A DNA stretch of 64,000 nucleotides from an uncultured Candidatus Saccharibacteria bacterium (GCA_965230955.1 OZ246404.1:988291-1052290), one strand, 5' to 3'; counted from the first letter of the stretch, positions 4,223 to 60,619 are shown. Notes: generated by a model not told the origin, from the sequence alone. Numbers and translations: made by a program.

Positions 4223-4299
4223 ATTTTATTTCTTTGGTTTCGGTTTTAACCTTATCGACAAAAACTCAGTAAAAACACTCAAGGAAAACATCACAAAAA

Positions 4300-4707: not shown

Positions 4708-4722
4708 ATGTGAAAATCCAGT

Positions 4723-7023: not shown

Positions 7024-7062
7024 TTATAAAAAGTAAGCCGGTTAAACTACTGCCGTTGAAAA

Positions 7063-7446: not shown

Positions 7447-7576
7447 ATTTTTTTGATTAATACGCCTTTCTTTTGTTTGGATGCCGAGATTATTATAACA
7501 TAAACCAATTTATTGTAAAAGCGGTCCGCCGGCAGCGGATCGCTGATTGATTCCTGATTTTAGAACCTACTCCAGC

Positions 7577-7987: not shown

Positions 7988-7991
7988 AAAT

Positions 7992-10900: not shown

Positions 10901-11213
10901 ATATAGCATTTTCATAATGGCGGACTGATTTTATTCTGCCGGACATAATCTGTCTAAATACTCGCTTGACGGCGGGAATATTTTGCCGCAGCAAAAAATG
11001 ATCGAACCAATTTTTCCCGATCATCTCCGCCCGGGTATAACCGATCATTTTTCTCCCGGCTCGATTGACCAAGACAACCCGTCCGAAACGATCCAAGATT
11101 AAAATAAAAACAGCTGTCAGGTCGAAGCTGTTTTGCATACGTTTTAACTCGGCCGGAGAAAAAAATAACTGGGCATCAGCGGAAGACTTTGATTTTGATT
11201 TTACTTTTGGCAT
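7992..11213 (-). CDS. large multi-PAS/GAF sensor histidine kinase
   Basis: Several PAS modules plus a GAF-like segment; H-box [25 protein letters not shown]; HATPase_c ([27 protein letters not shown]). Confidence 0.85.
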   Translation of the reverse strand: [1073 protein letters not shown]

Positions 11214-33248: not shown

Positions 33249-33434
33249 ATTTGTGTGTTATTTTTAGACAAACATAAAACTTGGTCTTTGAATATAATAG
33301 CACATTATTGCAGTAAAGAACAAATCGATGCTTCCTATCTCGAAATATTCGCTCTTGACAATATTGTAAAAATAAGGTAATACTGCGCTATAACGTGCTC
33401 TTTGAAAAAATTCCATCATGATAGGAGGTCATTG

Positions 33435-35117
33435 ATGAAAAAGGAAAATATAGGGATAATTCTTAGTTTGATGTTTCTGATTGTAGCAATCTTGGCCCCT
33501 CCCTACATATGCGTCGATGATGCTATAATCACCGCTCGTTACGCCCTTAACTGGGTAAACGGGCACGGTCTTGTTTCTCGGCCGGGAGACCCTCGAGTGG
33601 AAGGGTTCTCCAATCCAACTTTGATATTAGCTACTGCCCTGTTCGCCAAAATTATGGGAGTGCAAACAATCTGGAACTGTATGAAAAGCATGCTGGTGAT
33701 CAACTTGATAGCCGCCGGACTAACACTTTGGTTGATTAGTCGGTGGGGACTGCGCGAAAAGCGTTCCTATTGGTGGCTTCCCGCGCTGGCGCTGATAATT
33801 TTTCCACCCTTCTTTCTGGAAACCAAAAACGGCATGGAAACAGCTCTGTACATGTTCTTCCTCACAGCGCTGGTGATGTGCCTGACCCGGCGTTTCTACC
33901 GCACAGCCGTCATCTGCGCCATCGCTCTGTCGTGGTCACGACCGGAAGGTGTAATCATTTCCGGACTGATCTGGCTGAGCGCCCTGGTTCCGATTGTGCG
34001 TCAATCCGGCTGGGCCTGTTATCGGCGCTGGAGCCTCATGATCCTACTGGGTATATTGTCTCTGTTTGCCTGGCGGGTCATGTACTTTCATCAGGGCATC
34101 ATAACAAGCATTTATGATCTCTTTCCGATCACCGTTCAAGCCAAAAGTCATACCGGCAATATCTGGAACACCGCTACTTTTGGGCTGGCCTACTTGTGGC
34201 AAGGCTTGATTCTATCCCCGATCTTGGGCCTATTGCTCTTGTTTACCGGGAGAAGAATCATCCGAGAAAAATCCTGGATTGAAGCGGTAGCGATATCAGC
34301 CCAACTGGCTTTTATCACCGGTGTCGGCGGAGACCTCCACTACTTCGGCCCATATCGTTTTCTGATGCCGATCTTCCCCTTTCTCTTCCGCTCTATTTCC
34401 CTGGACTGGATAGAGCTGAAAAAGCCCGCTCTCCGACGCGCTGTCTGTGGCTTGTGCTTGCTGACTGCCTTCACCCCATTTAGGCACAATGACCAACCGG
34501 AAATAAAAATTGGTTGGTGCGATCAAATAGAGTGGCTCCTCTATGAACCGGTGGAAACAATAGTTTGGTTTTTGTACTACCCCTTGGGGACACAGCAACA
34601 TCCGGAATTATTCATCGGCGAGGCACTGACCGAACTGGTCAAGCCGGAATACCGAGCGACCGTTACCGTGACTTGCAATCAAGCCGGCGCGTTTGCCACG
34701 ACCTGCCCCGGGAAATTTATCGATATTTTCGGGCTAGTATCACCGGAATACTCCTCTCTCCCATTCGGGCCGGAAAAAGAAGCCTACTGGCTCAAACATC
34801 CGACCGACATATTGGTGAATTTCGCCAGGAAAGACAAACAAGGCAATACTAGCGACTACCACTTTGTTAGAACCGAGGGACTAACAAAATTGGGATACTT
34901 CCCCGTCTGCCAAATCCAAATTCGATACTGCGACATAAACATAAGAAAAAAATTTATTGGAAGCGACATCGTCTATTTCCTGTGCTTCATCCGCGATCCG
35001 GCCATCATTGATTTTGACAAACTTCGGGAAAAAACAAAGTACCAAGTCTGGACAAATCACGATGACGAAACCGGAGTCATCAAGAAGGTTGTTCCGGTGA
35101 TTGAATTTCTGGAATAG
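33435..35117 (+). CDS. GT-C fold membrane glycosyltransferase (PMT/ArnT-like)
   Basis: AGGAGG RBS 5 nt before the ATG at 33435; first extracytoplasmic loop VDDAIITARYALNWV resembles the GT39/GT83 DD/DE...RYA catalytic loop; ~11 TM helices plus a C-terminal soluble domain. Confidence 0.45.
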   Translation: MKKENIGIILSLMFLIVAILAPPYICVDDAIITARYALNWVNGHGLVSRPGDPRVEGFSNPTLILATALFAKIMGVQTIWNCMKSMLVINLIAAGLTLWLISRWGLREKRSYWWLPALALIIFPPFFLETKNGMETALYMFFLTALVMCLTRRFYRTAVICAIALSWSRPEGVIISGLIWLSALVPIVRQSGWACYRRWSLMILLGILSLFAWRVMYFHQGIITSIYDLFPITVQAKSHTGNIWNTATFGLAYLWQGLILSPILGLLLLFTGRRIIREKSWIEAVAISAQLAFITGVGGDLHYFGPYRFLMPIFPFLFRSISLDWIELKKPALRRAVCGLCLLTAFTPFRHNDQPEIKIGWCDQIEWLLYEPVETIVWFLYYPLGTQQHPELFIGEALTELVKPEYRATVTVTCNQAGAFATTCPGKFIDIFGLVSPEYSSLPFGPEKEAYWLKHPTDILVNFARKDKQGNTSDYHFVRTEGLTKLGYFPVCQIQIRYCDINIRKKFIGSDIVYFLCFIRDPAIIDFDKLREKTKYQVWTNHDDETGVIKKVVPVIEFLE

Positions 35118-35189: not shown

Positions 35190-35330
35190 CAAGTAACAGG
35201 TATCAGGTAACAAGTATCAGGGAACAAGTAACAAAAAACAACCATTACTCTTAATTTTGCTCATATGTAATGGCTGTTATTCCAATTTGTTCCCTGTTAC
35301 CTGATACCTGTTACTTGTTAATTGATCACC
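35190..35330. repeat. (GTAACAR)n/(GTATCAG)n inverted-repeat element
   Basis: ~45-bp arms around a 50-bp spacer carrying its own CCATTAC/GTAATGG hairpin; lies between convergent gene ends. Confidence 0.8.
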
Positions 35331-38300
35331 AGCCAGTTCACCGGCAAATCGACCGGAGCCGGTTTCCCGTCGTTAGTCGAAATCACAAATCCCTGCCCCG
35401 CCCGTTTCTCTTTTACTTTTACGCCGGTATTGGCGTCATTGGAACTTTCGATCGTCAGGAAAATTCGGCTCGCCGCCGTCACGGAATTATTCGGGACGAA
35501 AATTTCCGACTTGTTGCCGGGGAGTGTCACACTACCAATCGCTTTATTTTCGCCTTCTTGGATTTCGATATCGCCGGCCGTGACTTTCTGGAAGACGGCT
35601 TCACCGAGACTGTCGATATGCCAAGTGGCGTTATTCGACCAAAGTGAAGAAGCTTTGAGCGTGCCGGCGATATCAATATCTCCGCCAATGGTAACTTTAC
35701 CGGTAATACCCAGATCGCCGACGACTTGTCCGGCCTGGAGCGCACCACTTTGACCGGTGCCGGCAGTCAGAGTTTCCAATTGTTTTTTGATATTGGTAAT
35801 CTCTTCGTTCATATCCACGATGGCCGCTTCTTGTTCCTTGGCCGATTGAATCAGCGGAGTGACCAAATTTCCATAAGAAACCGTTTCGGGCCGGCCCTGG
35901 GCGTCATAGCTGACATACGCCGGATTGACTTGTTGGACTTCTTCGGCGATCAGACCTTCCTGCTTGGCGCCGGGATATTTTTTGTATTCAAATGATACCG
36001 GGCGTAATTGATACAGCCAGGCGATATTATTTATATTTTTCACATTGTTCTTGTAGCGCAGGGAAGAAGAAACATAACCGATTGTACCGGCATTATCGAC
36101 ATACAGATCGCGATTGGTCACGCCTACCGTATCGCTGTAAGTCCCGACGGAATTAATAGAATCTACCGTCGCCCCGGCATCGATGTATAGGCCGTATTCG
36201 ATATAGTCTTCCGGATCGAGCCAAGCGACATAATCCGTCCCGCTATTACTGGCTTCATCCACCGCGATCGAAAGTCCCATATCATTACCGGCCGCCGCCG
36301 CATTCACGTCAATCGAGACTCCGTAATCCGCTGCGGCTCCGCCGGTAGTGACCAAGAAAGTACCGCCCGTATTCCCCAACGCCGCGCCGGTCGCCAATCC
36401 CACAACGCCGATATTGTAGCCAAGGCTGGTTTGGTCTACCAACCCGCCGATACCATTGAAATGAACGGTGCTATTGTAAGTGATATTGCCCCCCTGTGTT
36501 CCCACAACGCCATAGAGATCACTATTGCTATAGGAATCCCCGGCGGTTCCCCCCACCCAGCCGTTAACACCGGCGATAAAATTCGTCCCGGAATCTGTCG
36601 TCACCGTCCCTTGATTATAGAAACCAACATTGAGGACATCCATCCCGGCAGTGACATCTTTTAGTGTATAGCCATCTTTGTTGCCCAAAATAAATTTACC
36701 GGCATGATTTTCGGCATAGACGCCATTATAATCAAGTGACGCATCTAATCCGAGATAACCGGACATACCCAAAGCTTCATCAGTATCATACGTAGTATGC
36801 ACTGAAGCCGTCAGCATAGCAGCTTTAACCCCGATAGTTGATTTACCATCATTAGCAGTCCCGGGATTTCCTTGTACGCCTATTTTGTTACCGGTCACTG
36901 CCGACAATACGTCGAAATAACCACCCCAATTTGATCCTGACCCACTTTCAGCTGATCCATAGATAGCAACATTTTGGTTAGTATTATTACTGGCCCGGCC
37001 ATACACACCGGTATTATATCCCGCCGCCCCGGCACCGTTGGAATTTCCGGTTATGCCGGCGATAGTATCGGCAGTCGCCAGAGTACTGGAATTGACCGCG
37101 TAAAGAGCGGACTGATAATCACCGGCATTATAAGTAGATAGAAAATCAAATTGTGCGCCGTATTGTAAATTACTCGCATGGTCATACAAATCCAGCTTAT
37201 AAGAAGGCGTCGTATCACCGATTCCAACATAGCCACCATCAAAGATACCGGCATAATTAGCCGTGCCACCCGAGGCTGTAGCATAAACAGCCGTATTACT
37301 GGTTCCGGCACCAGTAACTGAACTGTAAACACCATATTTGGTACCAGAAGCCCCCGTTTCAGAAATATTGATTCCCCGACCACTCGCACTGGCATCAGCA
37401 ATATTCATGCCATAGGCAGCATTGGCAGCAACACCAAATCCGCCGCGAGTAGCTCGTAAGTAGCCATCAGTGGTCTCGGCTGTGCCCACCCCTAGTCCAC
37501 CGGTCACATACGCATCACCCGAAACATATAATGGATAAGTGGCGTTATGAGCAATATTGACTCCAATATATCTAAAATCAGCGTCGCGGTCAGTATATAT
37601 AGTCGCCACGCCCCCCATGAACAAAGTATTAACGATATTCACATTACCACTGTCGAAATACCCGGCCCAGTTGGTCGTCCCGCCGGAAGCGGTGCCGTAG
37701 ATTCCATAATTTGTGGCATTCCCCGTGCCCGAACCATATACACCATAACTGGCGACAGAAGAGCGACTGGTCGCTCCATAAACACCATACTGGGTCGCCG
37801 CCCGATCAATTGAGGCATAAAGGCCATAATTAACTGTCGCCGAGCCCGGAACCGAAAGATAAATACCATAATTAGTCCCGGTCGCGCCGGTTTGTTCGAT
37901 ATTGATTCCGCGCCCGTCGGCACTGGCCTCGGCCACATTTATACCATAAGCGGCATTAGCGGCCACGCCAATCCCGGCTCGGCTCGCCCGCAAGTAACCA
38001 TCAGTAGCTTCAGCGGTGCCGACACCAAGCCCGCCGACAATAAAAGCATCGCCATCGGCATAAATTGATTGGGTCGTCCCGCCGATCACATATAGGCCGT
38101 ATTCGGCATTGGCTCCCGCCTGGAAAAATCCGGCATAATCGGTACCGGCGGCACCCGTGACATTAAAACGCCCGCCGTAATTGCTCCCCGTGGCGCCGGA
38201 AGACACACCGTAAACACCGTAGTTTTCCGTGCCGGTATTCGATGCTGTTCCGTAGACTCCATAATTATCCGTCGCAGCGGCTCCGGCGACGGAGAAATAT

Positions 38301-41300
38301 CCGCCGTAATTTGTACCGGCCGCTCCGGTGATCACTGACGCCAGGATGCCGTAATCATCTCCGCTACCGCCGGCATTGAGCTCGAAATATCCGCCGTAGT
38401 TGGCGTCAGTATTGCCGGCATTATCGATGTAGCCAAAAACACCGTAGTCGCTACTGTCGCCGGCCACCCCGATGATACTGAAATACCCGCCATAGTTACC
38501 TGAAACTGACGTGCCGGGATCGTTCAATAACGCATAGACGCCATAATCATTCAATGTTCCTCCGCCATCGACAGTAAATCGACCGCCCGAATTTGAATTC
38601 GCTCCTTGCGCCGCCCCCGCCACTCCGACCGATTCATCCCCGCCGTTTGGCAAAGCCACGTTTCCATAAATACCATAGGCGGTGAGACTTTGTCCGTTGG
38701 CGTTAAAAGTATTCGTCGCGTAGATCGAGTAATTGATAGAGGCTTCAAAAGCACCGGTACCACTGAAAGAATTATAGAAACCGTATTGACTGACTTCATG
38801 TGATCCGGAAACCGTTGTCGCCATATACATACCGCGCGCGCCATTGACCGTCGCTCCCAAGGTCGCTTCTCCGTGAAAAGCTTCGTTGTAATTGGTCGCC
38901 CCGCTCGCCGAAGCGTAAATAGCATAATTATTATAAGTATTGGTCGATCCGTCCGCCACGGAATAAATCCCATACGCCGTCGGGACAGCAGTGCCATCGG
39001 CACCGGTAGTTCTATTTCGAACATACAAACCAGTCGTCGTCGCCGTGGCTCCACTCGCGACACTTCCGCCGAAAGAATCGTAAATTCCGTATTGAGTCAA
39101 TCCGTTATTAATTCCATCGTTGGAAGTGGTACTGAAATAATAGCCTTGGACATCACCCAATGTCGCCGACAGCGCGGCGCTTCCGTGGAAAGCTTCATTA
39201 ATTCCGGCGGTACTCCCGGAAACAGTCGTGTGAATCCCGTAATTAGCCGTACCGTTGCCGCTGACTGTAAATTGCCCGCCATAATTATATACGGCATTCG
39301 CCACCACGGCGTTAACACCGTAATTAGTCGACTCACCGGCAACTGCGTTTGAAATATTTAAATACACGCCATTGTTCACCGTCGATGCGCCGGTCAAACT
39401 GATATAATTACCGTAAATTGTACCCGTCGCCCCGGTCATCGCCGTGTAGACGCCGTAACCGTTGTTCGACGCGTTGGCGATATTGAGCGAGCGTCCCGCC
39501 GTCGGCGTCGTGCCGATACTCATGATCCCGGAAGCGACCGAAACATTGTTAGAGTAAGTAGAATTTGGATAGAGGTAATCGCTCCCGACATCGTCCAGCC
39601 ACAAACCGGTTCCGCCGGAAGCCAGCGAGATCAAAGCGTCTATCACGCCTCGATCCGCCGCTCCAAACGCCGCTTCAAACGCCGCGGTGTTGTCGGTCAG
39701 GGCAAACGGAATCGCGGTCGTGATTAGCGCGTCTTGGAAATATATTTTGTCGGTGGAAAGTAATGTTATGTCATTCGTCGCTCCGGTGGAGCCGATAGTC
39801 AGTCCCGCCGTGGCGGTGATATTTGTCCCGACGCCGGTGATATTTTGTGAACCCATGGTCAAGGCGGCGTTGGTAATATCGAGACCGTTTTCCGCGTCAA
39901 CATTGCCGGTGAAATTCGCCGTGCCGTCAACGTACAATTCATCGCTCGTCGCTCCGCTGGCGATATAGACGCCGTATGTCGTACCGGAGAAATATCCGCC
40001 GTAATTTGTCGTCGCGCCGCTCGCCGTCGAATACAAACCGTAGTTCGTCGTCGACGCGCCCGTCGCTTCCAGGTACCCGCCATAATTGGCGTCACCTGTT
40101 CCGGTCACGCTCAGCACTCCGCCGTAATTAGTACCGGTGCCGGCATTATTGTTTCGAACTCTTATGCCCCAATCCACTCCCGCTGTACCGGTTCCAATAC
40201 TGACATCTAATCCGGTATTTGTATCACTTCCACTTCCGTCAGTCAGAAAAACAGTGGCTCCGTAATTATTACCACCGCCGGCTGTAGAAATACCCAAGAT
40301 AGCTCCATAATCATCGCCAGCATTACCGACCTGGACGCGTCCGTAAATTCCGACATCACTGCCGGCGCCGCCCGTCCCAACATCAAAGTAACCGGCATAA
40401 TTAGACGTAGCTCCAGTGGCCACTATATATGATCCGTAATTAGTGGTAGCTGCGCCGGACACGCTCACTTCCATGCCATAATTTGTCGTCGACGCGCCGG
40501 TGGCTGAAATATATTGACCATGAATTGTACCAGTCGCTCCGGTCATTGCCGTGTAGACGCCGTAACCGTTGTTCGACGCGTTGGCGATATTGAGCGAGCG
40601 TCCCGCCGTCGGCGTCGTGCCGATACTCATGATCCCGGAAGCGACCGAAACATTGTTAGAGTAAGTAGAATTTGGATAGAGGTAATCGCTCCCGACATCG
40701 TCCAGCCACAAACCGGTTCCGCCGGAAGCCAGCGAGATCAAAGCGTCTATCACGCCTCGATCCGCCGCTCCAAACGCCGCTTCAAACGCCGCGGTGTTGT
40801 CGGTCAGGGCAAACGGAATCGCGGTCGTGATTAGCGCGTCTTGGAAATATATTTTGTCGGTGGAAAGTAATGTTATGTCATTCGTCGCTCCGGTGGAGCC
40901 GATAGTCAGTCCCGCCGTGGCGGTGATATTTGTCCCGACGCCGGTGATATTTTGTGAACCCATGGTCAAGGCGGCGTTGGTAATATCGAGACCGTTTTCC
41001 GCGTCAACATTGCCGGTGAAATTCGCCGTGCCGTCAACGTACAATTCATCGCTCGTCGCTCCGCTGGCGATATAGACGCCGTATGTCGTACCGGAGAAAT
41101 ATCCGCCGTAATTTGTCGTCGCGCCGCTCGCCGTCGAATACAAACCGTAGTTCGTCGTCGACGCGCCACTGACTGAAATATAATTTCCATAAATAGTTCC
41201 GACCGTCCCGGTCATCGCCGTATAGACACCGTAACCGTTGTCGGCCGCGTTGGCGATATTGAGAGAGCGAGCACTGCTCGGCGCCACGCCGATTCCCACC

Positions 41301-42619
41301 ACCCCGCCGTTGGCATAAATATTTCCGCCGGTAAATTCCCAGCGGTCATCGGTGGTATAAGTGACTGATCCGGTCGCATCATTGGAGGCATACATATTGA
41401 GGATCGCATTGGTCGCCGCGCCGGCCGAGCCCTCACCGATCCGCACCGTGTTTAAATTTTCATCAACGGAAAAAGGCGCGACCAAACTATTCGCGCCGAT
41501 AGCAAAATCATCGGTCAGGGTATAGGGATGAATAATTATCCCCGTTTGCTCCCAGAGAAAAGGCTGATAAGAAATATCCGTGCCGTCGGACATCAAAACG
41601 GTATTGGCTAATCCGGCGCCGAGCCGGGTCGTGGTATTGGCGGCATTGCGGTAAATAATATCGCCGCGGGTTGTCATCGGATCCAGGAAACCGGAACTTT
41701 GGTTTTGCCAAGTGACATTGCCGCTGCCGTCGGTAATCAAAATCTGATTATTCGATCCCCGGGTGGTGGGAAAAGTATACGACGTCACACCAGTGCCAAA
41801 AGTGACTGCCCCAATCAAGTTTGTCGTATTGGAAACCGAAAGCGTGCTGGATAAATCAGTCGCGCCGGTCACGCCCAGGGTTGAAGACAAGGTAGCCGCT
41901 CCGGTCACGATGAGAGTGGAAGATAACGTGGTCGCGCCGGTAACGCCCAAAGTGGAGTCGAATGAAACCGCCCCGCTGACATGTAATCTCCCGTTCGGGA
42001 TCGAGACATCTTGCGATACCCCGGCTTTGGGATGTAAATTTCCGCTGCTATCTTCCCACATCCCGGCCGCCGGTATCGCCGTAGTATTTAAATAATTTAG
42101 CGCGTCGAGAATACCTCTTTCCGCCACCGGGAAAGAATCAATATTCGTATCAGTCAACGAGCCCGGCACGCCATAGACTCTTTCGGTATTCAGCGAATAA
42201 CCAACTCCGCCGATCCGACGCCGAGGCGACATTTCACCGTCGCCATTTACTTCGATCCCCAGATAATATACTCCGCTGTTGAAATCCAGATTGATCGCAT
42301 TGAGTGAGCCGAGATTAACATTGAAAACTCCGTCTTCCACCGTCACTTTGTTTCCGCCGATGTGATTCTCCGACCACATGGCTACCCCGCCTGAAGAAAC
42401 GTTGTAAATCCGAAAATTCATGTCATATACCCCATCGGTAACATTGGTACCGTCGGGATTGGTCAGCCGCCCCTGGAAATTAAACTCTTTAACATAGCCG
42501 GCGCGGACGTTTACCGGGGTATCAAAAAAGCCTACCAGTGAAAAAATCACCGCCAGAATAGCTAAAACTAGGGCTATAACGCCAAAAACTTGGCTTTTTG
42601 CCTTTTTTGTTTGAGCCAT
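35318..42619 (-). CDS. giant (2433 aa) membrane-anchored Thr/Ser/Gly/Asn/Tyr-rich surface protein with C-terminal tail-fibre-type intramolecular chaperone (peptidase S74) domain
   Basis: N-terminal signal-anchor helix; long NYGGYF/GATGT-type low-complexity beta repeats; C-terminus SSSLRYKNNVKNI...WLYQLRPVSFEYK...GLIAEEVQQVNPAYV matches the endosialidase/tail-fibre auto-cleaving chaperone domain. Confidence 0.7.
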   Translation of the reverse strand: MAQTKKAKSQVFGVIALVLAILAVIFSLVGFFDTPVNVRAGYVKEFNFQGRLTNPDGTNVTDGVYDMNFRIYNVSSGGVAMWSENHIGGNKVTVEDGVFNVNLGSLNAINLDFNSGVYYLGIEVNGDGEMSPRRRIGGVGYSLNTERVYGVPGSLTDTNIDSFPVAERGILDALNYLNTTAIPAAGMWEDSSGNLHPKAGVSQDVSIPNGRLHVSGAVSFDSTLGVTGATTLSSTLIVTGAATLSSTLGVTGATDLSSTLSVSNTTNLIGAVTFGTGVTSYTFPTTRGSNNQILITDGSGNVTWQNQSSGFLDPMTTRGDIIYRNAANTTTRLGAGLANTVLMSDGTDISYQPFLWEQTGIIIHPYTLTDDFAIGANSLVAPFSVDENLNTVRIGEGSAGAATNAILNMYASNDATGSVTYTTDDRWEFTGGNIYANGGVVGIGVAPSSARSLNIANAADNGYGVYTAMTGTVGTIYGNYISVSGASTTNYGLYSTASGATTNYGGYFSGTTYGVYIASGATSDELYVDGTANFTGNVDAENGLDITNAALTMGSQNITGVGTNITATAGLTIGSTGATNDITLLSTDKIYFQDALITTAIPFALTDNTAAFEAAFGAADRGVIDALISLASGGTGLWLDDVGSDYLYPNSTYSNNVSVASGIMSIGTTPTAGRSLNIANASNNGYGVYTAMTGATGTIHGQYISATGASTTNYGMEVSVSGAATTNYGSYIVATGATSNYAGYFDVGTGGAGSDVGIYGRVQVGNAGDDYGAILGISTAGGGNNYGATVFLTDGSGSDTNTGLDVSIGTGTAGVDWGIRVRNNNAGTGTNYGGVLSVTGTGDANYGGYLEATGASTTNYGLYSTASGATTNYGGYFSGTTYGVYIASGATSDELYVDGTANFTGNVDAENGLDITNAALTMGSQNITGVGTNITATAGLTIGSTGATNDITLLSTDKIYFQDALITTAIPFALTDNTAAFEAAFGAADRGVIDALISLASGGTGLWLDDVGSDYLYPNSTYSNNVSVASGIMSIGTTPTAGRSLNIANASNNGYGVYTAMTGATGTIYGNYISLTGASTVNNGVYLNISNAVAGESTNYGVNAVVANAVYNYGGQFTVSGNGTANYGIHTTVSGSTAGINEAFHGSAALSATLGDVQGYYFSTTSNDGINNGLTQYGIYDSFGGSVASGATATTTGLYVRNRTTGADGTAVPTAYGIYSVADGSTNTYNNYAIYASASGATNYNEAFHGEATLGATVNGARGMYMATTVSGSHEVSQYGFYNSFSGTGAFEASINYSIYATNTFNANGQSLTAYGIYGNVALPNGGDESVGVAGAAQGANSNSGGRFTVDGGGTLNDYGVYALLNDPGTSVSGNYGGYFSIIGVAGDSSDYGVFGYIDNAGNTDANYGGYFELNAGGSGDDYGILASVITGAAGTNYGGYFSVAGAAATDNYGVYGTASNTGTENYGVYGVSSGATGSNYGGRFNVTGAAGTDYAGFFQAGANAEYGLYVIGGTTQSIYADGDAFIVGGLGVGTAEATDGYLRASRAGIGVAANAAYGINVAEASADGRGINIEQTGATGTNYGIYLSVPGSATVNYGLYASIDRAATQYGVYGATSRSSVASYGVYGSGTGNATNYGIYGTASGGTTNWAGYFDSGNVNIVNTLFMGGVATIYTDRDADFRYIGVNIAHNATYPLYVSGDAYVTGGLGVGTAETTDGYLRATRGGFGVAANAAYGMNIADASASGRGINISETGASGTKYGVYSSVTGAGTSNTAVYATASGGTANYAGIFDGGYVGIGDTTPSYKLDLYDHASNLQYGAQFDFLSTYNAGDYQSALYAVNSSTLATADTIAGITGNSNGAGAAGYNTGVYGRASNNTNQNVAIYGSAESGSGSNWGGYFDVLSAVTGNKIGVQGNPGTANDGKSTIGVKAAMLTASVHTTYDTDEALGMSGYLGLDASLDYNGVYAENHAGKFILGNKDGYTLKDVTAGMDVLNVGFYNQGTVTTDSGTNFIAGVNGWVGGTAGDSYSNSDLYGVVGTQGGNITYNSTVHFNGIGGLVDQTSLGYNIGVVGLATGAALGNTGGTFLVTTGGAAADYGVSIDVNAAAAGNDMGLSIAVDEASNSGTDYVAWLDPEDYIEYGLYIDAGATVDSINSVGTYSDTVGVTNRDLYVDNAGTIGYVSSSLRYKNNVKNINNIAWLYQLRPVSFEYKKYPGAKQEGLIAEEVQQVNPAYVSYDAQGRPETVSYGNLVTPLIQSAKEQEAAIVDMNEEITNIKKQLETLTAGTGQSGALQAGQVVGDLGITGKVTIGGDIDIAGTLKASSLWSNNATWHIDSLGEAVFQKVTAGDIEIQEGENKAIGSVTLPGNKSEIFVPNNSVTAASRIFLTIESSNDANTGVKVKEKRAGQGFVISTNDGKPAPVDLPVNWLVIN
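39441..40060. repeat. perfect 620-bp direct repeat, copy 1 (inside the giant gene)
   Basis: Identical to 40548..41167 (offset 1107 bp); the tracked ORFs 39687..39968 and 40794..41075 are identical 93-aa products. Confidence 0.9.
40548..41167. repeat. perfect 620-bp direct repeat, copy 2
   Basis: See copy 1; flanks diverge at 39434/40541 and 40061/41168. Confidence 0.9.
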
Positions 42620-42801: not shown

Positions 42802-45126
42802 TTAAGAATCCGGGCCGCTTAAATCCTCTAAATTACGGTCTTTCTTCTCCTCCACTTTTTTGATCGTTTCCTGCATACCGGGAGTTTCAGGAGGAGGCGG
42901 CGGCGCAGCGTTTGGGGATGTCGGGGCATAGGGTAGCCCGGTGGCAGGATCCAGCGGAACATTGAAACGCACTACCCCATCGCGCTTAACGTTGAAATCT
43001 TCACCGCGATAGCGATTGAATCCTTTTTCAATTTTGGAAGGGAAAGCATACTGCTCGCGATCAACCGTCAGACGATAAGTTTCCGGCCCGACCAAGAAAC
43101 CAAATCGTCCGTGGCGATCGGTCACTTGCGTTTCCAGTAAATCATTGTACCGTCGATTAAATAATCTGACGACCGCCAGTCCCACCGGTTTCCCGGTCTT
43201 GGCATCATAAACCATGCCCCAGGGCTTGCTCTTTTGACCCTGAACGACCCGTCCGAAAAATATAAATAAAACGATATGAAGAATAAGGAAGATCATAGTA
43301 TAAATTGACGGGCTGATCCAAAGACACACCGCCGCGATAACCGGGCCGAGTATGGCCAAGATCAAATTGACCCGACGATGCAAGTAACGCAAGACCACAT
43401 TGCGATTGGTCATCGCCATATCTTGCTTGAGCATCGGATCTAAAGGCACGCTGACGGTAATAACAGTTTTACCGGAAGCGATTTCAATCGGCTCGCCGAA
43501 ATAAAGATCGTCATAGCCGGCATCGTGAGTTTTGCCCCGCATTTTTAGCGAGGGGAAGGCGAAGTTCGGCTTGGTGACCGTGATGCGGAATTTTCCTTCC
43601 TTGGTCAAAAAGGTAAATCGTCCCTGGCGATCAGTCACGCGAGTGCTGACCAATTTTCCCGTCTGCGCATCAAGCAAGCGTACCAGCGCCAGATCAACCG
43701 GAACTTTGGAAAGCGCATTATACACCACGCCCCAACAACGGCGGCGCCGTCCGGCAAAGAAGAGAAAAGGCTCGGTAAAAAGATACCAGAAAGACAGCAG
43801 GGCGGTACCGACATTGGCCATACCAGCCGCGGTCAGCAAGTTGGCGATCGCCAAAGCGGTCAGACCGGGAACGACAACCGACTGATTGATCAATTGAGTA
43901 ACCGGATTTTCTCTGAATAATTCGATATCCCGGAGCAAATCTCGCAGGGCGGTAATTATCAGTTCCGGAATCGTCAGGGGCGGATTCACCGGCGGGACAT
44001 CAATTCCCGGAATGGTGATCGTGGCCGGCAACGATAAATCGGTCGAAATATTATTACAGTTTCGCGCCATCACGTTATAAACATAAGTCTGGCCGGCCAC
44101 CAAACCATAGTGCGCCCGGCTTAACGCCGTCGACCAGTAAGAAGCGCCGCTGACCGATCCGTCGGGCTGTAAAAAAGCGCCGTTGACCAAAACCGCAAAT
44201 TCCGTCCCGGCCGGATTGCCGTTGGCCGCGATGGAAATTGTCGCCGTATATGTTCCGTCATCGGCGGCGACATAAGAGACACCGGGCTGACCCGGGACGT
44301 TCGCCAACGTACACCGCGTCAAGGTCGCCTCGGCGTTTTCTACGCCGCAAATATTTCGCTGTTTGGAATGCCAGGTATAAGCGGTGTTAAAATTTAATCC
44401 CGTGTCGCGCCAGCTGTTATCCCCGCTCTGCCAACCGGATTCGTTTACAACGCCGCGCCGGAAAAAATATCCGCTCAGCTCTATGCTATGCCGCGGAAAA
44501 ATCGGGACGGAGAGATCCATGTAATCCACTCCCGGACTGGCAAAAAGTCCCCGCGTTCCGACCAGAGTACAGCCGGAAGCAAAGCCGGAAGGGATACTGT
44601 TTCCGAAAGGATTAAAAGCCAAAACTTGTTCGGTGTATTTTTGGTTTTCATCCAGTCCGGTTTGGGTAATGGAGCTGATATTGGCTTGATTGACCACCTC
44701 AACGACGGTAGCCGAATCATCTTCCAGCAGGAAACCTTCTTCATCGGCCGACCGATCGGTAAAATTCCATTTTATAGCAGACGCGGACAAGCCTTCCGGT
44801 ATCCCGATTTCCGGCTTATTCGGCGGTTTGAAATAGAGATAACCGGCTTTGACGATATAATTGGGCGAGGTAAATTTTCCCGTGACAAAATAATTCAGCG
44901 CCTCATCGACCGAAAAATCTCCGGAATCAAGCTGACCGCCCGATTCATCGATATCTTCAACTTTCATCCGGTAATTCGGACTGGAATAACCGACGGCACC
45001 GGCTCGATCATTACTCCAAACAAAACCCAGGCTGACCGAAAGCAGGCAAATTAAAAAACCAATGCGCCACCAGCGGGCGAATGGATTTTTAATTCGCACC
45101 AGATTGTTTTTTTTATTTACCAACAC
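42802..45126 (-). CDS. membrane protein with two carboxypeptidase-regulatory-like (prealbumin-fold) domains and a Pro-rich C-terminus
   Basis: GTG start; N-terminal signal/TM; large extracytoplasmic domain; two repeats of GxVYxAxTGKPVxLAxVRL...TQVTDRxGRFxFL...YxxTVxKxxYAFPS, each following TM helices; PPPPPETP tail. Confidence 0.5.
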   Translation of the reverse strand: MLVNKKNNLVRIKNPFARWWRIGFLICLLSVSLGFVWSNDRAGAVGYSSPNYRMKVEDIDESGGQLDSGDFSVDEALNYFVTGKFTSPNYIVKAGYLYFKPPNKPEIGIPEGLSASAIKWNFTDRSADEEGFLLEDDSATVVEVVNQANISSITQTGLDENQKYTEQVLAFNPFGNSIPSGFASGCTLVGTRGLFASPGVDYMDLSVPIFPRHSIELSGYFFRRGVVNESGWQSGDNSWRDTGLNFNTAYTWHSKQRNICGVENAEATLTRCTLANVPGQPGVSYVAADDGTYTATISIAANGNPAGTEFAVLVNGAFLQPDGSVSGASYWSTALSRAHYGLVAGQTYVYNVMARNCNNISTDLSLPATITIPGIDVPPVNPPLTIPELIITALRDLLRDIELFRENPVTQLINQSVVVPGLTALAIANLLTAAGMANVGTALLSFWYLFTEPFLFFAGRRRRCWGVVYNALSKVPVDLALVRLLDAQTGKLVSTRVTDRQGRFTFLTKEGKFRITVTKPNFAFPSLKMRGKTHDAGYDDLYFGEPIEIASGKTVITVSVPLDPMLKQDMAMTNRNVVLRYLHRRVNLILAILGPVIAAVCLWISPSIYTMIFLILHIVLFIFFGRVVQGQKSKPWGMVYDAKTGKPVGLAVVRLFNRRYNDLLETQVTDRHGRFGFLVGPETYRLTVDREQYAFPSKIEKGFNRYRGEDFNVKRDGVVRFNVPLDPATGLPYAPTSPNAAPPPPPETPGMQETIKKVEEKKDRNLEDLSGPDS

Positions 45127-54272: not shown

Positions 54273-56306
54273 ATGCCCATAAGCAATCGAGCCTTATCGA
54301 TCGCGGGAATCGTATGTTTTTTGATATTTTTTTTCCTCTTTCCCTTAGTACGAGCCGACGAGGAGCCGGTTACCCAGCCCCATGTTGTCCGAGTGGGTAT
54401 TTATGACAATAAACCTAAAATCTATCGCGATGATGACGGTCAAGTAAAAGGATTTTTCGCCGACATCTTGAATTATACCGCCGCCCAAGAAGGTTGGAAA
54501 ATAGACTATATCGACGGCACTTGGGATGAAGGCTTGGAGCGTCTGAAAAATAATGAAATCGATATCATGGTCGATGTCGCCTTGTCGGAAGAACGACAGC
54601 AAGTCTATGATTTTAACAATGAAACAGCTCTCTTTGCTTGGGGAGTCATCTATACCCGCCCGGGAGTGAAAATCGAAAAAATCAACGACCTGGAAGGAAA
54701 AAACATTGCTGTGATGAAAAGCGGCATTCTTTTTACCGGACCCTGGGGTATCGAAAATCTTTTGAATTCTTTTCAGATCAAATCCAATTACACGGATGTC
54801 AAAGTCTATGGTGATGTTTTTAAATTATTAGACCAAGGCGAGGCGGATGCGGGAGTAGTCAATACCTTTTACGGATTCGCCAATCAAAAAGATTATAAAG
54901 TAGTTCGAACCAATATCGTCTTTAATCCCAGCGAACTGCGCTTCGCCTTAACTAAAAACGCCCCGGCTAACCCGTACTTGATAGAAAAATTGGATGCTAA
55001 TCTTCAAAAGCAGAAAGCGGACAACAACAGCGCCTACCAAAAGAATATGCAAGCTTTCCTGACTGAAATGGAAGCATCGCAAGAAGTGGAAGTCTTTCCG
55101 GTCTGGGCTCAAATGACGCTAATCATCAGCGGAATCGGTATCGCGGCATTGCTGGTGATTTATTTTATCGCATTGCGCTATCGAGTAAAACTGGAAAAAA
55201 CAGTCCGAGCCAGAACGGCGGAATTGAAAAGATCGGAAGAAAAATATCGCACGACAATCGAGCGCGCCAATGACGGCGTGGCTATTATCCAAGATCAAAT
55301 AATAAAATACGGCAACGCGGCTCTGGCCAGTATCAGAGGCGAACCGCTGGAAAAAATCATCGGGCAAAACTTCACAAAATTTGTGGATAAAGAATCCTTG
55401 CCGAAAGTGGTTGATTTCTATAAACGACGCCTGCGCAATGAAAAAATACCGACTGAGTATGAAACGGTTTTAAGAAACGTGGCCGGCGACAAAATCTATG
55501 TCGAAGTGAATACCGGCCTGGCCGATTATGAGGGCCGGCTGGCTGATGTCGTTATGGTCCACGATATCACCGAGCGTAAAAAATCAGAGGCCAAAGTCAA
55601 AGAACTTAACGAGCTCCGCAAAAAATTCGTCCAAATCGTTTCGCATCAGCTTCGAACCCCCCTAACCTCCATTCGTTGGAATACCGAAGCCTTGCTCAGC
55701 GGCGATATGGGAAAAATGGAGCCGGCCCAGGAACAAATATTGCGCTCGACCAACCGCGCCGAAGCGACTGTTATAAATCGCCTGGGAGATCTCCTGACGG
55801 TGATGGAAATCGAAGAAGGCCGGGAGAATCTGTCCAAAGAAACGGCCTCGATTGAAAGCCTGTGGGGTTCGGTGATCAAAGACGTGAAAAAGAAATGCCA
55901 GGCCAAAAACCTTCGGTTTATCTATCATTCACCGGATAAATTATTACCCAAAGTATCAATCGACTTGGAAAAAATGAGAGTGGTTTTCTGGCAGTTGATG
56001 AGTAATGCCCTGGATTATACTCGGCCGGGAGGAAAAATAGAGACAAGATTTATCAACCGGCGCGGCCGAATACGCTTTGAAGTCTCGGATAACGGTATCG
56101 GTATTCCGGAAGTGGAACAACCGCGAATTTTTGAGAAATTTTTCCGAGCCAGCAACGCAGCCGCGATGGAGACAGATCGTTCGGGCATCGGATTGTCAAT
56201 TGCAAAATTCTACATCGAAGAACACGGCGGAAAAATTGGCTTCTCGAGCGAAGAAAGCAAAGGCAGTACTTTTTGGTTTGAAATTCCCGCAAGTTCCGGA
56301 GATTAA
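54273..56306 (+). CDS. sensor histidine kinase with periplasmic solute-binding (SBP_bac_3-like) domain and PAS domain
   Basis: Signal peptide/TM; family-3 SBP-like domain; TM; PAS; H-box KFVQIVSHQLRTPLTSIRW; HATPase_c (DNGIGI, GIGLSIAKFYIEEHGG). Confidence 0.8.
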   Translation: MPISNRALSIAGIVCFLIFFFLFPLVRADEEPVTQPHVVRVGIYDNKPKIYRDDDGQVKGFFADILNYTAAQEGWKIDYIDGTWDEGLERLKNNEIDIMVDVALSEERQQVYDFNNETALFAWGVIYTRPGVKIEKINDLEGKNIAVMKSGILFTGPWGIENLLNSFQIKSNYTDVKVYGDVFKLLDQGEADAGVVNTFYGFANQKDYKVVRTNIVFNPSELRFALTKNAPANPYLIEKLDANLQKQKADNNSAYQKNMQAFLTEMEASQEVEVFPVWAQMTLIISGIGIAALLVIYFIALRYRVKLEKTVRARTAELKRSEEKYRTTIERANDGVAIIQDQIIKYGNAALASIRGEPLEKIIGQNFTKFVDKESLPKVVDFYKRRLRNEKIPTEYETVLRNVAGDKIYVEVNTGLADYEGRLADVVMVHDITERKKSEAKVKELNELRKKFVQIVSHQLRTPLTSIRWNTEALLSGDMGKMEPAQEQILRSTNRAEATVINRLGDLLTVMEIEEGRENLSKETASIESLWGSVIKDVKKKCQAKNLRFIYHSPDKLLPKVSIDLEKMRVVFWQLMSNALDYTRPGGKIETRFINRRGRIRFEVSDNGIGIPEVEQPRIFEKFFRASNAAAMETDRSGIGLSIAKFYIEEHGGKIGFSSEESKGSTFWFEIPASSGD

Positions 56307-59389: not shown

Positions 59390-60619
59390 TTATTCGGCCG
59401 AGGGAGACGCTTCGATCCGTTCTTTTATGGCCCGAATGACAATCGGATCATCCCCCCAGGCACCGAGATTGATAACCTCCACGCCGGCAGGAATGTTCGC
59501 TTCATGAACCAAGGTGGGTATATCGTACTGGCTGTGCATGGAATCGGCGCTGATCGCCGAGGCAAAGAAGAAGATTTTTTTCACTCCCTGGTTGATTAAT
59601 TGCTCAACTTTTTCTTTAGGTTTCGGCTCTTTGAAATCCATCCAAGCCTGGCTCAGATTTTCCGGCAAATACCCATCCGCTTCAAAGAGCTTAATAATCT
59701 CTTCGCGAAAACTGGTTTCCTGCTCGGTTTCCGTCGGCCATTCAACATCCCATTCGTCCGGTTGTCCGTGACCGACCAACAAGACCGCGATTTTATCCTT
59801 GGGCGTATCGCCTCGATTGGCATTTACCCGAGAAACAAACATACTGCGCAAAGTTTCCGAGTTCCAGAGCGGCTGAACATAGACTATTTCAACTTGATAT
59901 TTATCAAGCTCCAGCTCTTTTATCTGTTTGACTCCTTCGGCCGTGTGATTGGAATTGGTCAAGAATACTTCGCTCACGATAATCTTACTGGCCCCTTCAT
60001 TGAGAGCTTGAATAACCGCCGCGTCCGGCCGAGGCTCATCATCAAGAAAACTCAAATAAAATTTCGTCGTTTGATCACCGTCGGCTCGATAAGCTTCTTC
60101 CAGACTTTTAATCATATTTTTGTGACCCTGCCGGTGATTACTCTGCCCCACTTTTACATAATGGTCCCGCAACTGGTAGAAAAATATCGGCCGAACCAAG
60201 AATGGTATAAAAGATATTTTTTGCTCATCAAATTCATTGAATTGGTTTATCCAGCCGATCGGATTATAGTTTTCCGGCTCGCCGTGAGTAAAATAAACAA
60301 CCGCCGTATGCCCGTCACCGGGATCGCTGGGAGACCGGGTCAAAGTCGGGACGGCTCGATTATCAACGGTGTTCAAAATAATCTGCGTCATCGTAGCGTA
60401 CCCGCCGATGAAAAAGACCGCAACCAGAATAATAACCAAAGCCAGCCATTTACCCCGAAACCCGGTAACCACGAGAAAAACACAGGCCAGGGCGGAAATC
60501 AGAAAAAAAGACAGATAAACGGCCATTTGATTGATCGGGCAAGACATGTATCTGACCAGTAAATATCCGGCGACAAATGCCAGGGCGATGACTGACAGCC
60601 AAAGAATGATTTTTTTCAT
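59390..60619 (-). CDS. membrane-anchored class II chelatase-like protein (ferrochelatase/CbiX-like fold)
   Basis: Three N-terminal TM helices, then a two-lobed ~330-aa domain with VVYFTHGEP and LLVGHGQPDEWD resembling ferrochelatase N- and C-lobe motifs, including a conserved His. Confidence 0.45.
   Translation of the reverse strand: MKKIILWLSVIALAFVAGYLLVRYMSCPINQMAVYLSFFLISALACVFLVVTGFRGKWLALVIILVAVFFIGGYATMTQIILNTVDNRAVPTLTRSPSDPGDGHTAVVYFTHGEPENYNPIGWINQFNEFDEQKISFIPFLVRPIFFYQLRDHYVKVGQSNHRQGHKNMIKSLEEAYRADGDQTTKFYLSFLDDEPRPDAAVIQALNEGASKIIVSEVFLTNSNHTAEGVKQIKELELDKYQVEIVYVQPLWNSETLRSMFVSRVNANRGDTPKDKIAVLLVGHGQPDEWDVEWPTETEQETSFREEIIKLFEADGYLPENLSQAWMDFKEPKPKEKVEQLINQGVKKIFFFASAISADSMHSQYDIPTLVHEANIPAGVEVINLGAWGDDPIVIRAIKERIEASPSAE

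What the first reader, a model, noticed from the sequence alone, without database searches (positions are those of the whole stretch)
35318..42619. 2433-aa membrane-anchored low-complexity giant protein ending in a tail-fibre intramolecular-chaperone (peptidase S74) domain
The C-terminal ~110 aa (SSSLRYKNNVKNINNIAWLYQLRPVSFEYKKYPGAKQEGLIAEEVQQVNPAYVSYDAQGRPETVSYGNLVTPLIQ) carries the Ser-containing SDxRxK-like motif and the GLIAxEV signature of the auto-cleaving chaperone found at the C-termini of phage tail spikes and fibres. In those proteins the domain drives trimeric beta-helix folding and is then released. Here it caps about 2200 aa of NYGGY/GATG-type repeats anchored by an N-terminal TM helix. 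A cellular, envelope-anchored tail-fibre-like fibre suggests adhesion to host or partner cells.
Basis: partly seen in the sequence, partly recalled or inferred. Interest (0 to 1): 0.7.

Follow-up and report, generated by a model that had tools for sequence, protein, structure and literature searches.

The report
Phage-like surface fibre of a CPR bacterium
A tiny symbiotic-type (Patescibacteria) bacterium encodes, at a fixed chromosomal locus, a 2,433-residue secreted fibre built like a phage tail fibre, with a self-cleaving folding domain near its end, and it is probably used to grip other cells.

Summary
The ORF (35318-42619, minus strand, 2,433 aa) is real. The S74 call is correct: PF13884 scores 32.4 bits (cut-off 22) at aa 2185-2236, Ser2185 and Lys2190 are conserved, and the model has pLDDT 94-98 and matches MyRF and phage chaperone structures.

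1. The S74 domain is not terminal. A coiled coil and a 140-aa tailspike-type beta-sandwich (PF24146, K1-lyase_C-like) follow it.
2. The N-terminal hydrophobic segment aligns with cleavable AxA signal peptides of homologues. It is more likely a Sec signal peptide than a membrane anchor.
3. After it comes a ~120-aa domain homologous to the N-domain of Bdellovibrio MAT (mosaic adhesive trimer) fibres.

The gene is cellular, not prophage. It lies in a syntenic block (PilB-DHH-UppP-CarboxypepD_reg protein-fibre-TPR-PolA-HolA-TruB-UvrB) shared with other Patescibacteria.

Orthologues at the same locus keep the N-domain and the terminal beta-sandwich. In place of S74 they carry the unrelated phi29-gp12-type (Peptidase_G2) auto-chaperone, and their shaft is almost unalignable with this one.

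Best reading: a MAT-like trimeric adhesive fibre whose C-terminal cassette nucleates folding and is cut off at Ser2185. This is a new variant of a known kind, of moderate interest.

The parts
35318..42619 (-). Whole ORF, 2,433 aa plus stop: giant fibre protein
   Evidence: ORF list and translation. Full-length relatives with the same end domains are P0169 (2,454 aa), L003 (3,025 aa), P0172 (1,619 aa) and P0174 (2,023 aa).
42500..42619 (-). aa 1-40: basic n-region (KKAK), 22-aa hydrophobic core, V-R-A|G. Probably a Sec signal peptide, possibly a signal anchor
   Evidence: The top Kyte-Doolittle windows are all at aa 10-14. The segment aligns with the AxA|A sites of homologues and a lipobox in P0094. 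No signal-peptide predictor was available.
42140..42499 (-). aa 41-160: conserved beta-rich N-domain, related to the Bdellovibrio MAT N-domain (proposed cell-proximal attachment domain)
   Evidence: NCBIfam NF053851 Bdello_MAT_N scores 28.6 bits on the isolated domain against a subfamily cut-off of 60. Ten of 11 family members hit it, best E 3e-12. Alignment A1 has invariant W, E, G, F, LG and PR. The domain is 71-85% identical in close orthologues.
41765..42007 (-). aa 205-285: ~11-residue 'TLGVTGATTLSSTL' repeats (beta-helix-type fibre repeats)
   Evidence: This is the part shared at 55-80% identity with hundreds of fibre-like proteins, many of which carry PF13884.
36170..41764 (-). aa 286-2150: G/A/T/S/N/Y-rich shaft with NYGGY-type 13-14-aa repeats and four 'VGIG..P....L' capping-loop-like motifs. 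No family match
   Evidence: Composition and motifs. No Pfam or PHROG hit for three 500-aa slices, and no PDB hit for the whole protein. The 300 aa before the chaperone are only ~21-25% identical to orthologues.
39416..41167 (-). Recent segmental duplication: aa 485-699 (40523-41167) equals aa 854-1068 (39416-40060), 1,107 nt apart
   Evidence: 215 aa are identical, with 3 nt differences in 645 nt.
35750..36067 (-). aa 2185-2290: S74 intramolecular chaperone / self-cleaving domain, including its terminal long helix (aa 2249-2289)
   Evidence: PF13884 at 32.4 and 37.4 bits. AF2 pLDDT is 94-98. Foldseek top hits are MyRF ICA 7DC3 (prob 1.0, TMt 0.62), then 3GUD and 3GW6. PHROG tail-fibre families match with their profile ends.
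36050..36067 (-). Codons for S2185-S-L-R-Y-K2190: predicted Ser-Lys catalytic dyad. Predicted cut between S2184 and S2185
   Evidence: S2185 is invariant and K2190 is present in at least 90% of the 43-sequence alignment A2. The motif aligns with SDERLK of 8JOV and SDRRIK of 6F45. The cut position is inferred from Bd3182, where the structure ends at A781 and the catalytic residue is S782.
35321..35740 (-). aa 2294-2433: terminal beta-sandwich of the tailspike / tail-fibre C-terminal type, ending NWLVIN
   Evidence: PF24146 at 31.7 bits against 27. There are 85 representative relatives, usually at the extreme C-terminus. The AF2 model has pLDDT 85.6. Foldseek hits are Pam1 tailspike 7EEA, K64-1 depolymerase 9K4A, R2-pyocin fibre 6CT8/6CL6, K1 lyase 7W1C/D and Sf6 tailspike.
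42802..45126 (-). Upstream same-strand neighbour, 774 aa: multi-TM protein with two CarboxypepD_reg domains. Conserved partner gene (candidate anchor or assembly factor)
   Evidence: Pfam. It is adjacent to the fibre gene in L003 (80% identity), L019 and L020. A functional link is inference only.

Best explanation
The ORF encodes a secreted, probably homotrimeric, phage-tail-fibre-like surface fibre of a Patescibacteria (CPR) bacterium. It belongs to the same architectural class as the Bdellovibrio MAT (mosaic adhesive trimer) fibres.

Proposed mechanism:
1. The chain is exported through Sec by the N-terminal signal sequence (inferred).
2. The conserved MAT_N-like domain (aa 41-160) holds the base at the cell surface (inferred by analogy with MAT).
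3. About 2,000 aa of Gly/Ala/Thr/Ser/Asn/Tyr-rich repeats form the shaft and the variable distal region (inferred).
4. Folding and trimer registration start at the C-terminal cassette. This cassette is the S74 intramolecular chaperone (aa 2185-2290, identity shown) plus its coiled coil and a tailspike-type beta-sandwich (aa 2294-2433, identity shown).
5. The Ser2185/Lys2190 dyad then cuts the chain before Ser2185. This frees a 249-aa fragment and exposes the variable region upstream as the working tip (inferred from phage endosialidase, T5 pb1 and Bd3182).

The fibre's job is most likely contact with or recognition of a host or partner cell surface glycan (inferred from organism, architecture and locus).
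For: S74 identity:
- Pfam is above its cut-off.
- Ser is invariant and Lys nearly invariant.
- The motif aligns to the SDxxxK of solved phage fibres.
- The high-confidence model matches ICA/IMC structures.
- PHROG tail-fibre profiles match with their C-terminal ends.

MAT-like architecture:
- The N-domain hits Bdello_MAT_N in 10 of 11 family members.
- The profile of the C-terminal relatives hits the five Bdellovibrio MAT crystal structures.
- The MAT paper describes signal peptide, ~130-aa N-domain, trimeric fibre, then S74 or other tips, with self-cleavage shown for Bd3182.

Cellular core gene:
- Housekeeping neighbours flank it.
- The same gene order is found in L019 and L020, and the upstream CarboxypepD_reg neighbour is also adjacent in L003.
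- UvrB relatives are all Patescibacteria.

The cassette is an assembly module:
- Orthologues at the same locus carry the unrelated phi29 gp12-type Peptidase_G2 auto-chaperone at exactly this position. Profile A4 hits 6QZ9, 3SUC and 3GQH, and the conserved D aligns to residue 1 of the released fragment. PF11962 scores 27.7 bits.
- The termini are 71-85% identical across orthologues, while the 300 aa before the chaperone are about 21-25% identical. That is the pattern expected if the variable part is the exposed tip.
Against: - No cleavage, trimerisation or localisation data exist.
- The residue after the nucleophile is Ser, not the usual Asp. This is shared with a subfamily (P0122-P0127), and I do not know whether it affects catalysis.
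- The domain after the chaperone resembles domains that are part of mature tailspikes and fibres. It is well conserved, which could instead mean that it is the functional tip and that cleavage does not happen or does not release it.
- The shaft has no detectable family or structure match, so its trimeric beta-helical nature is assumed.
- The match to Bdello_MAT_N is far below that model's cut-off (28.6 against 60 bits).
- The signal-peptide call rests on alignment, not on a predictor.
Confidence: 0.65

Rival explanations
1. The S74 domain acts only as an in-line trimerisation module, either uncleaved or cleaved but retained. The terminal tailspike-type beta-sandwich is then the true distal receptor-binding tip, or a transient cap, of the fibre.
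For: - The terminal domain matches the distal C-terminal beta-sandwiches of the Pam1 tailspike, the R2-pyocin fibre, K1 lyase and the Sf6 tailspike.
- In K1 lyase this domain forms a trimer-locking dome.
- It is conserved at 73-74% among close orthologues and recurs after chaperone modules in many proteins.
- Asp is replaced by Ser next to the nucleophile.
Against: - Ser2185 and Lys2190 are conserved.
- The same SS..K subfamily occurs in proteins that end right after the chaperone helix (P0122-P0127).
- Two or three unrelated self-cleaving chaperone types occupy the same slot in orthologues. That is hard to explain if cleavage were irrelevant.
- A conserved tip beside a hypervariable shaft is the opposite of what is usual for receptor-binding proteins.
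Confidence: 0.2
2. The gene is a phage or prophage tail-fibre gene, or a recent phage insertion, rather than a cellular surface protein.
For: - S74, Peptidase_G2 and K1-lyase_C are typical phage tail-fibre or tailspike modules.
- One S74 relative (P0127) carries a phage tail-collar domain.
Against: - No phage genes were found among the 20 largest neighbouring ORFs.
- The gene lies between UppP/CarboxypepD_reg and TPR/PolA in the same order in three other genomes.
- It has a Sec-type N-terminus and a MAT_N-like cell-side domain.
- There is no marked GC anomaly.
Confidence: 0.03
3. The ORF length or architecture is an assembly artefact of a repetitive region, such as collapsed or chimeric repeats.
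For: - A 645-nt block is duplicated with only 3 differences.
- Short-read Logan contigs break inside the gene.
- The exact protein is not in the protein collection.
Against: - The frame stays open over 7.3 kb.
- Both end domains and the overall plan are reproduced in independent assemblies with different lengths (1,637-3,025 aa).
- Repeat copy number may be uncertain, but the architecture is not.
Confidence: 0.07

Closest known systems
Bdellovibrio bacteriovorus MAT (mosaic adhesive trimer) fibres, S74 subgroup, e.g. Bd3182 (Caulton et al. 2024, PMC10769870)
   Same: - It is a cellular, not phage, protein.
- It has an N-terminal export signal followed by a conserved ~120-130-aa beta-rich N-domain, which is homologous at a low score.
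- A long repetitive fibre follows, with VGIG..P...L loop motifs.
- There is an S74 self-cleaving chaperone near the C-terminus.
- Family members are mosaic, with swapped C-terminal modules.
- A type IV pilus gene lies nearby.
   Different: - It is 2.4 times longer than typical MATs (~1,000 aa).
- The host is a Patescibacteria bacterium, not a predatory proteobacterium.
- Only one copy was found, at a fixed syntenic locus in this window, against 21 paralogues in Bdellovibrio.
- S74 is followed by an extra tailspike-type beta-sandwich.
- Orthologues use a Peptidase_G2 chaperone, which is not reported for MATs.
- The N-domain scores 28.6 bits against the NCBIfam cut-off of 60.
Phage tail fibres and spikes with a C-terminal intramolecular chaperone (K1F endosialidase 3GW6, GA-1 3GUD, T5 pb1 4UW8; Pfam PF13884 / MEROPS S74)
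   Same: - The HMM match, the Ser-x4-Lys dyad, the predicted fold and the long terminal helix all agree.
- The PHROG tail-fibre profiles align with their C-terminal ends.
   Different: - This protein is not part of a virion.
- The domain is not terminal.
- The motif is SS rather than SD.
- The fibre has a Sec signal and a cell-side base domain instead of a virion-attachment domain.
Eukaryotic MyRF ICA domain (7DC3)
   Same: - It is the best structural match to the model.
- Like this protein, MyRF has the S74/ICA domain in the interior of the chain, with further domains after it.
   Different: - In MyRF the downstream part is the membrane anchor, and cleavage frees the N-terminal trimer.
- Here the export or attachment end is N-terminal, and cleavage would free the C-terminal piece.
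phi29 gp12 pre-neck appendage auto-chaperone (Peptidase_G2, PF11962; 3GQH, 3SUC, 6QZ9)
   Same: It occupies exactly the same slot in the orthologous fibres of sister genomes (P0169, L003, P0176), between the shaft and the conserved terminal beta-sandwich.
   Different: It is not present in the window's protein. It is an unrelated fold and mechanism. It is relevant only as evidence that the slot is an exchangeable auto-chaperone position.
C-terminal beta-sandwich of phage tailspikes and fibres (K1 lyase PF24146, Pam1 tailspike, R2 pyocin fibre foot, Sf6 tailspike)
   Same: The terminal 140 aa give a Pfam hit above the cut-off, and the predicted fold matches these domains.
   Different: In those proteins the domain belongs to the mature protein, directly after the beta-helix. 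Here it lies downstream of a self-cleavage site.

Membership tests
Peptidase S74 / intramolecular chaperone (PF13884) | Sequence match to the family HMM above the curated threshold | tested here: met
   The whole protein scores 32.4 bits (cut-off 22), aa 2185-2236, profile positions 1-57 of 58. The isolated segment scores 37.4 bits.
Peptidase S74 / intramolecular chaperone (PF13884) | Catalytic Ser and Lys five residues apart (S-D-x-x-x-K) | tested here: met
   S2185 is invariant and K2190 is present in at least 90% of A2. The motif aligns with SDERLK and SDRRIK of solved fibres. The Asp is replaced by Ser, as in the subfamily P0122-P0127.
Peptidase S74 / intramolecular chaperone (PF13884) | IMC fold: small beta domain plus a long C-terminal helix that forms the trimeric coiled coil | tested here: met
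   The monomer AF2 model has pLDDT 94-98 over aa ~2175-2285, with a helix at aa 2249-2289. Foldseek gives 7DC3 at prob 1.0, then 3GUD and 3GW6. The trimer itself was not modelled.
Peptidase S74 / intramolecular chaperone (PF13884) | Location at the extreme C-terminus of a trimeric beta-helical fibre | tested here: not met
   All 41 S74 relatives match only up to the equivalent of aa ~2262-2296, and most of them end within a few residues of that point. This protein continues for another ~140 aa. The same non-terminal arrangement recurs in P0172, P0174, P0175, P0177, P0202 and P0211.
Peptidase S74 / intramolecular chaperone (PF13884) | Autoproteolytic release of the chaperone after trimer folding | not testable with these tools
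   This needs expression of wild type against S2185A or K2190A, or proteomics.
MAT (mosaic adhesive trimer) fibre family of Bdellovibrio (NCBIfam NF053851 N-domain) | Signal peptide immediately followed by the conserved ~130-aa beta-rich N-domain | tested here: inconclusive
   The N-domain hits NF053851 at 22.5-28.6 bits against a cut-off of 60. Ten of 11 relatives hit it, best E 3e-12. This shows homology at superfamily level but not membership of the Bdellovibrio subfamily. The signal peptide is inferred from alignment.
MAT (mosaic adhesive trimer) fibre family of Bdellovibrio (NCBIfam NF053851 N-domain) | Long fibre with a variable, exchangeable C-terminal module (S74 or other) | tested here: met
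   S74 is present here. Orthologues at the same locus carry Peptidase_G2, and more distant relatives (P0171, P0173) carry a third module type. The profile of the relatives hits the MAT crystal structures 8OND, 8OML, 8OJN, 8OL4 and 8ON4.
MAT (mosaic adhesive trimer) fibre family of Bdellovibrio (NCBIfam NF053851 N-domain) | Homotrimeric fibre displayed on the cell surface and involved in cell-cell recognition | not testable with these tools
   No multimer prediction or experiment was available.
K1-lyase_C (PF24146) tailspike C-terminal beta-sandwich | HMM match above the threshold and a beta-sandwich fold | tested here: met
   The isolated tail scores 31.7 bits against 27. The hit was not reported when the whole protein was scanned. 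The AF2 model has pLDDT 85.6 and is all-beta. Foldseek hits 7EEA, 9K4A, 6CT8, 7W1C/D and 4URR with prob 0.95-1.0 but E values of only 2.6e-3 to 0.14.

The most novel reading that the evidence does not exclude
In a lineage of Patescibacteria, a single-copy, syntenic giant surface fibre is built from phage parts. Its C-terminal cassette is a general, exchangeable unit: any self-cleaving auto-chaperone (S74, phi29-type G2 or a third type) plus a conserved tailspike beta-sandwich. The released or retained fragment would act as a transient cap or lectin that controls when the hypervariable tip becomes adhesive. This would be a regulated host-recognition device of episymbionts, with no described counterpart in phage or Bdellovibrio fibres.
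Probability: 0.25. Interest if true: 0.75.

Novelty: new variant of a known kind. Interest (0 to 1): 0.55.

Why it matters
How ultrasmall Patescibacteria find and hold their host cells is largely unknown beyond type IV pili.

- **A concrete candidate.** This is a phage-derived, MAT-like fibre at a conserved locus next to pilB. It has conserved ends and a hypervariable shaft and tip, so it is a testable candidate for host recognition.
- **Wider reach of the MAT principle.** The Bdellovibrio MAT design would extend to a very different, monoderm-like episymbiont lineage.
- **Interchangeable chaperones.** Within orthologous genes, unrelated self-cleaving chaperones (S74 and Peptidase_G2) are interchangeable, and a further conserved domain can sit behind the cleavage site. 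This bears on how such fibres fold and mature.
- **Practical caveat.** Cellular S74 proteins are already routinely annotated as 'tail fiber domain-containing protein', so the bare S74 observation is not new.

Tried and rejected
1. An exact look-up of the giant protein and of PolA found nothing on record. Logan contigs break inside the gene.
2. Single-sequence searches of PDB sequences with the C-terminal 400 aa, the tail and the whole protein gave no hits. Only profiles (A2, A4) reached solved structures.
3. The whole-protein Pfam scan missed the PF24146 tail domain. It appeared only when the tail was scanned alone.
5. From the large PAS/GAF histidine kinases I first guessed the organism was not CPR (after). 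The UvrB search showed that all named relatives are Patescibacteria, so I dropped that guess.
6. The first structure model left the tail at pLDDT below 50 because only one homologue covered it. I re-modelled it with 30 tail-domain sequences.
7. Shaft slices returned no hits in Pfam (one 500-aa slice plus the N-terminal 480 aa) or in PHROGs (three 500-aa slices).
8. I considered and rejected the prophage reading, because synteny and the lack of phage genes argue against it.
9. Literature searches for Patescibacteria together with tail fibre or intramolecular chaperone found no paper describing such fibres. The library is limited, so this is weak evidence of absence.
Full report
**1. Observation**

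The minus-strand ORF 35318..42619 is real and uninterrupted: 2,433 codons with an ATG start. Its composition is extreme: G 15.7, A 11.5, T 11.1, S 8.4, N 8.3, Y 6.7 %, with no Cys. NYG-type motifs recur, locally every 13-14 residues.

A 215-aa block (aa 485-699) is repeated exactly at aa 854-1068. The two 645-nt copies differ at only 3 positions, so this is a recent segmental duplication, and the copy number could be assembly-sensitive. The only strongly hydrophobic stretch is aa ~11-32.

**2. The S74 domain**

- Pfam PF13884 matches aa 2185-2236 at 32.4 bits (cut-off 22). The isolated segment scores 37.4 bits.
- In a 43-sequence alignment of relatives, S2185 is invariant and K2190 nearly so, together with the GLIAEE motif.
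- A profile of that alignment aligns the SSSlRYK consensus onto SDERLK of 8JOV and SDRRIK of 6F45. The nucleophile is therefore S2185 and the base K2190, and the usual Asp is replaced by S2186.
- The closest relatives (P0122-P0127) share the SS/SSI...K form, and their sequences end just after the helix. One of them carries a phage tail-collar domain.
- An AlphaFold2 model of aa 2141-2433 has pLDDT 94-98 over aa ~2175-2285, with a 40-residue terminal helix.
- Foldseek puts the MyRF ICA domain first (7DC3, prob 1.0, TMt 0.62), followed by the phage chaperones 3GUD and 3GW6.
- PHROG tail-fibre families match with the ends of their profiles.

The S74 call stands.

**3.

All S74 relatives stop at the equivalent of aa ~2275-2296. 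This protein goes on for 140 aa.

- That tail, scanned alone, hits PF24146 (K1-lyase_C) at 31.7 bits against 27.
- A search of 1.84 billion representatives found 85 relatives. In about half of them the domain is at the extreme C-terminus, ending ...(D/N)WLIIN.
- With 30 of these sequences the domain models as an all-beta structure at pLDDT 85.6.
- The model matches the C-terminal beta-sandwiches of the cyanophage Pam1 tailspike, a Klebsiella K64-1 depolymerase, the R2-pyocin fibre, K1 lyase and the Sf6 tailspike.
- In K1 lyase this sandwich forms a trimeric dome that locks the subunits together (PMC8822698).

**4. The N-terminus**

Residues ~41-160 form a conserved domain with invariant W, E, G, F, LG and PR. 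It is found in proteins from Saccharibacteria, Uhrbacteria, other Patescibacteria, Anaerolineae, Dehalococcoidia and others.

It hits NCBIfam NF053851 'Bdello_MAT_N' at 28.6 bits. Ten of 11 family members hit that model, best E 3e-12, but all are below the subfamily cut-off of 60.

In the alignment, the homologues' AxA|A signal-peptidase sites (a lipobox in one case) line up with V-R-A|G of this protein. The hydrophobic segment is therefore more likely a cleaved Sec signal peptide than a permanent anchor. I could not run a signal-peptide predictor.

**5. Genomic setting**

The neighbours are housekeeping genes: UvrB, TruB, HolA, PolA, UppP, a DHH protein, a PilB-type ATPase, TPR proteins and TsaD. 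No phage genes were seen.

UvrB's named relatives are all Patescibacteria, Kerfeldbacteria or Parcubacteria at 60-72% identity. The source contig is 1.14 Mb.

The order TPR-PilB-DHH-UppP-TsaE-CarboxypepD_reg protein-FIBRE-(TPR)-PolA-HolA-TruB-UvrB is the same in a Patescibacteria genome (GCA_042571345.1, L019). The order as far as PolA is also seen in a second assembly (L020), and L003 keeps the upstream neighbour at 80% identity. The fibre is therefore a vertically kept chromosomal gene, not a prophage gene. Only one copy of the N-domain and tail domain occurs in the window.

**6. Orthologue comparison**

- The orthologues at this locus are 1,637, 2,454 and 3,025 aa long.
- Against the closest relatives (P0168-P0170; P0169 sits at this locus) the first 200 aa are 71-85% identical and the last 140 aa are 73-74% identical. 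The more distant locus orthologue P0176 drops to 36% and 44%.
- The 300 aa before the chaperone are only ~21-25% identical across all four.
- In place of S74 they carry a module whose profile hits the phi29 gp12 pre-neck appendage (6QZ9, 3SUC) and its released auto-chaperone fragment 3GQH. The invariant Asp aligns to residue 1 of that fragment. PF11962 Peptidase_G2 scores 27.7 bits against 25.
- More distant family members carry S74 (P0172, P0174, P0175, P0177, P0202, P0211) or a third variant (P0171, P0173). In every case the same terminal sandwich follows.

The slot between the shaft and the terminal sandwich is therefore an exchangeable auto-chaperone position.

**7. Mechanism**

Shown:
- domain identities;
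- the Ser/Lys dyad;
- chromosomal synteny;
- mosaicism among orthologues.

Inferred from the phage and Bdellovibrio precedents (PMC10769870, where Bd3182 cleaves at S782 and the mature tip ends at A781):
- Sec export;
- attachment at the base through the MAT_N-like domain;
- trimer nucleation at the C-terminal cassette;
- cleavage between S2184 and S2185, releasing a 249-aa fragment;
- exposure of the variable upstream region as the adhesive tip.

The main rival is that the terminal sandwich is itself the tip or a retained cap. The conservation pattern, and the use of unrelated self-cleaving modules in the same slot, favour removal or cap behaviour over a fixed tip. Only an experiment can decide.

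**8. Comparison and novelty**

The closest known system is the MAT family. The differences are:
- the host lineage (a CPR episymbiont-type bacterium);
- size;
- a single syntenic locus;
- a non-terminal S74 followed by a tailspike sandwich;
- exchange of S74 with Peptidase_G2.

NCBI already names a relative 'tail fiber domain-containing protein [Patescibacteria group bacterium]', and the MAT paper notes that other bacteria may have such fibres. I found no paper describing them in Patescibacteria.

Verdict: the finding is real and the S74 interpretation is right. The 'membrane-anchored' and 'ending in' parts need correction. It is a new variant of a known kind, of moderate interest.

Noticed in passing
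window 42802-45126 (-): A 774-aa multi-TM protein with an FN3-like N-terminal region and two CarboxypepD_reg domains lies directly upstream on the same strand. It is adjacent to the fibre gene in L003 (80% identity), L019 and L020. It is a candidate anchor or assembly partner for the fibre.
   Followed up: partly
window 33402-35117 (+): A 571-aa multipass membrane protein with a 'CVDDAIITARY' motif near the first loop has no Pfam or NCBIfam hit. It sits between the fibre and the TPR gene, where L019 has nothing. It could be a GT-C-like glycosyltransferase acting on the Ser/Thr-rich fibre, but this is pure speculation.
   Followed up: no
window 1958-11213 (-) and 54273-56306 (+): There are four large sensor histidine kinases. 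Three carry multiple PAS domains (754-1,073 aa; one also has a GAF domain and one a HisKA_7TM region), and the fourth (677 aa) has an SBP_bac_3 sensor domain. The genome's source contig is only ~1.1 Mb and its relatives are Patescibacteria. This is an unusually rich signalling repertoire for a CPR genome.
   Followed up: no
window 56389-59325 (+): A 978-aa ORF combines a PlsY-type glycerol-3-phosphate acyltransferase domain with PPDK_N and PEP-utilizer mobile domains. This is an unusual fusion.
   Followed up: no
window 39416-40060 and 40523-41167 (-): A 645-nt segment inside the fibre gene is duplicated 1,107 nt away with only 3 nucleotide differences. This is either a very recent duplication or a place where the assembly may mis-count repeats.
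   Followed up: partly
proteins P0186, P0211, P0188: Relatives with the same terminal beta-sandwich begin with a cytoplasmic-type DNA-binding domain (MerR/excisionase-like HTH, or Phage_int_SAM). The HTH examples (P0186, P0211) continue with a hydrophobic segment, a long fibre, a chaperone and the tail domain. This is an odd inside-outside architecture.
   Followed up: no
loci L011 and L017 (Patescibacteria, Uhrbacteria): Other CPR genomes encode proteins with the same MAT_N-like N-domain that exceed 3,480 aa and run off the fetched locus. Giant fibres of this class therefore seem common in CPR.
   Followed up: no
window 59390-60619 (-): A ferrochelatase/CbiX-like gene is present in a presumed CPR genome, a group that usually lacks tetrapyrrole metabolism.
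   Followed up: no
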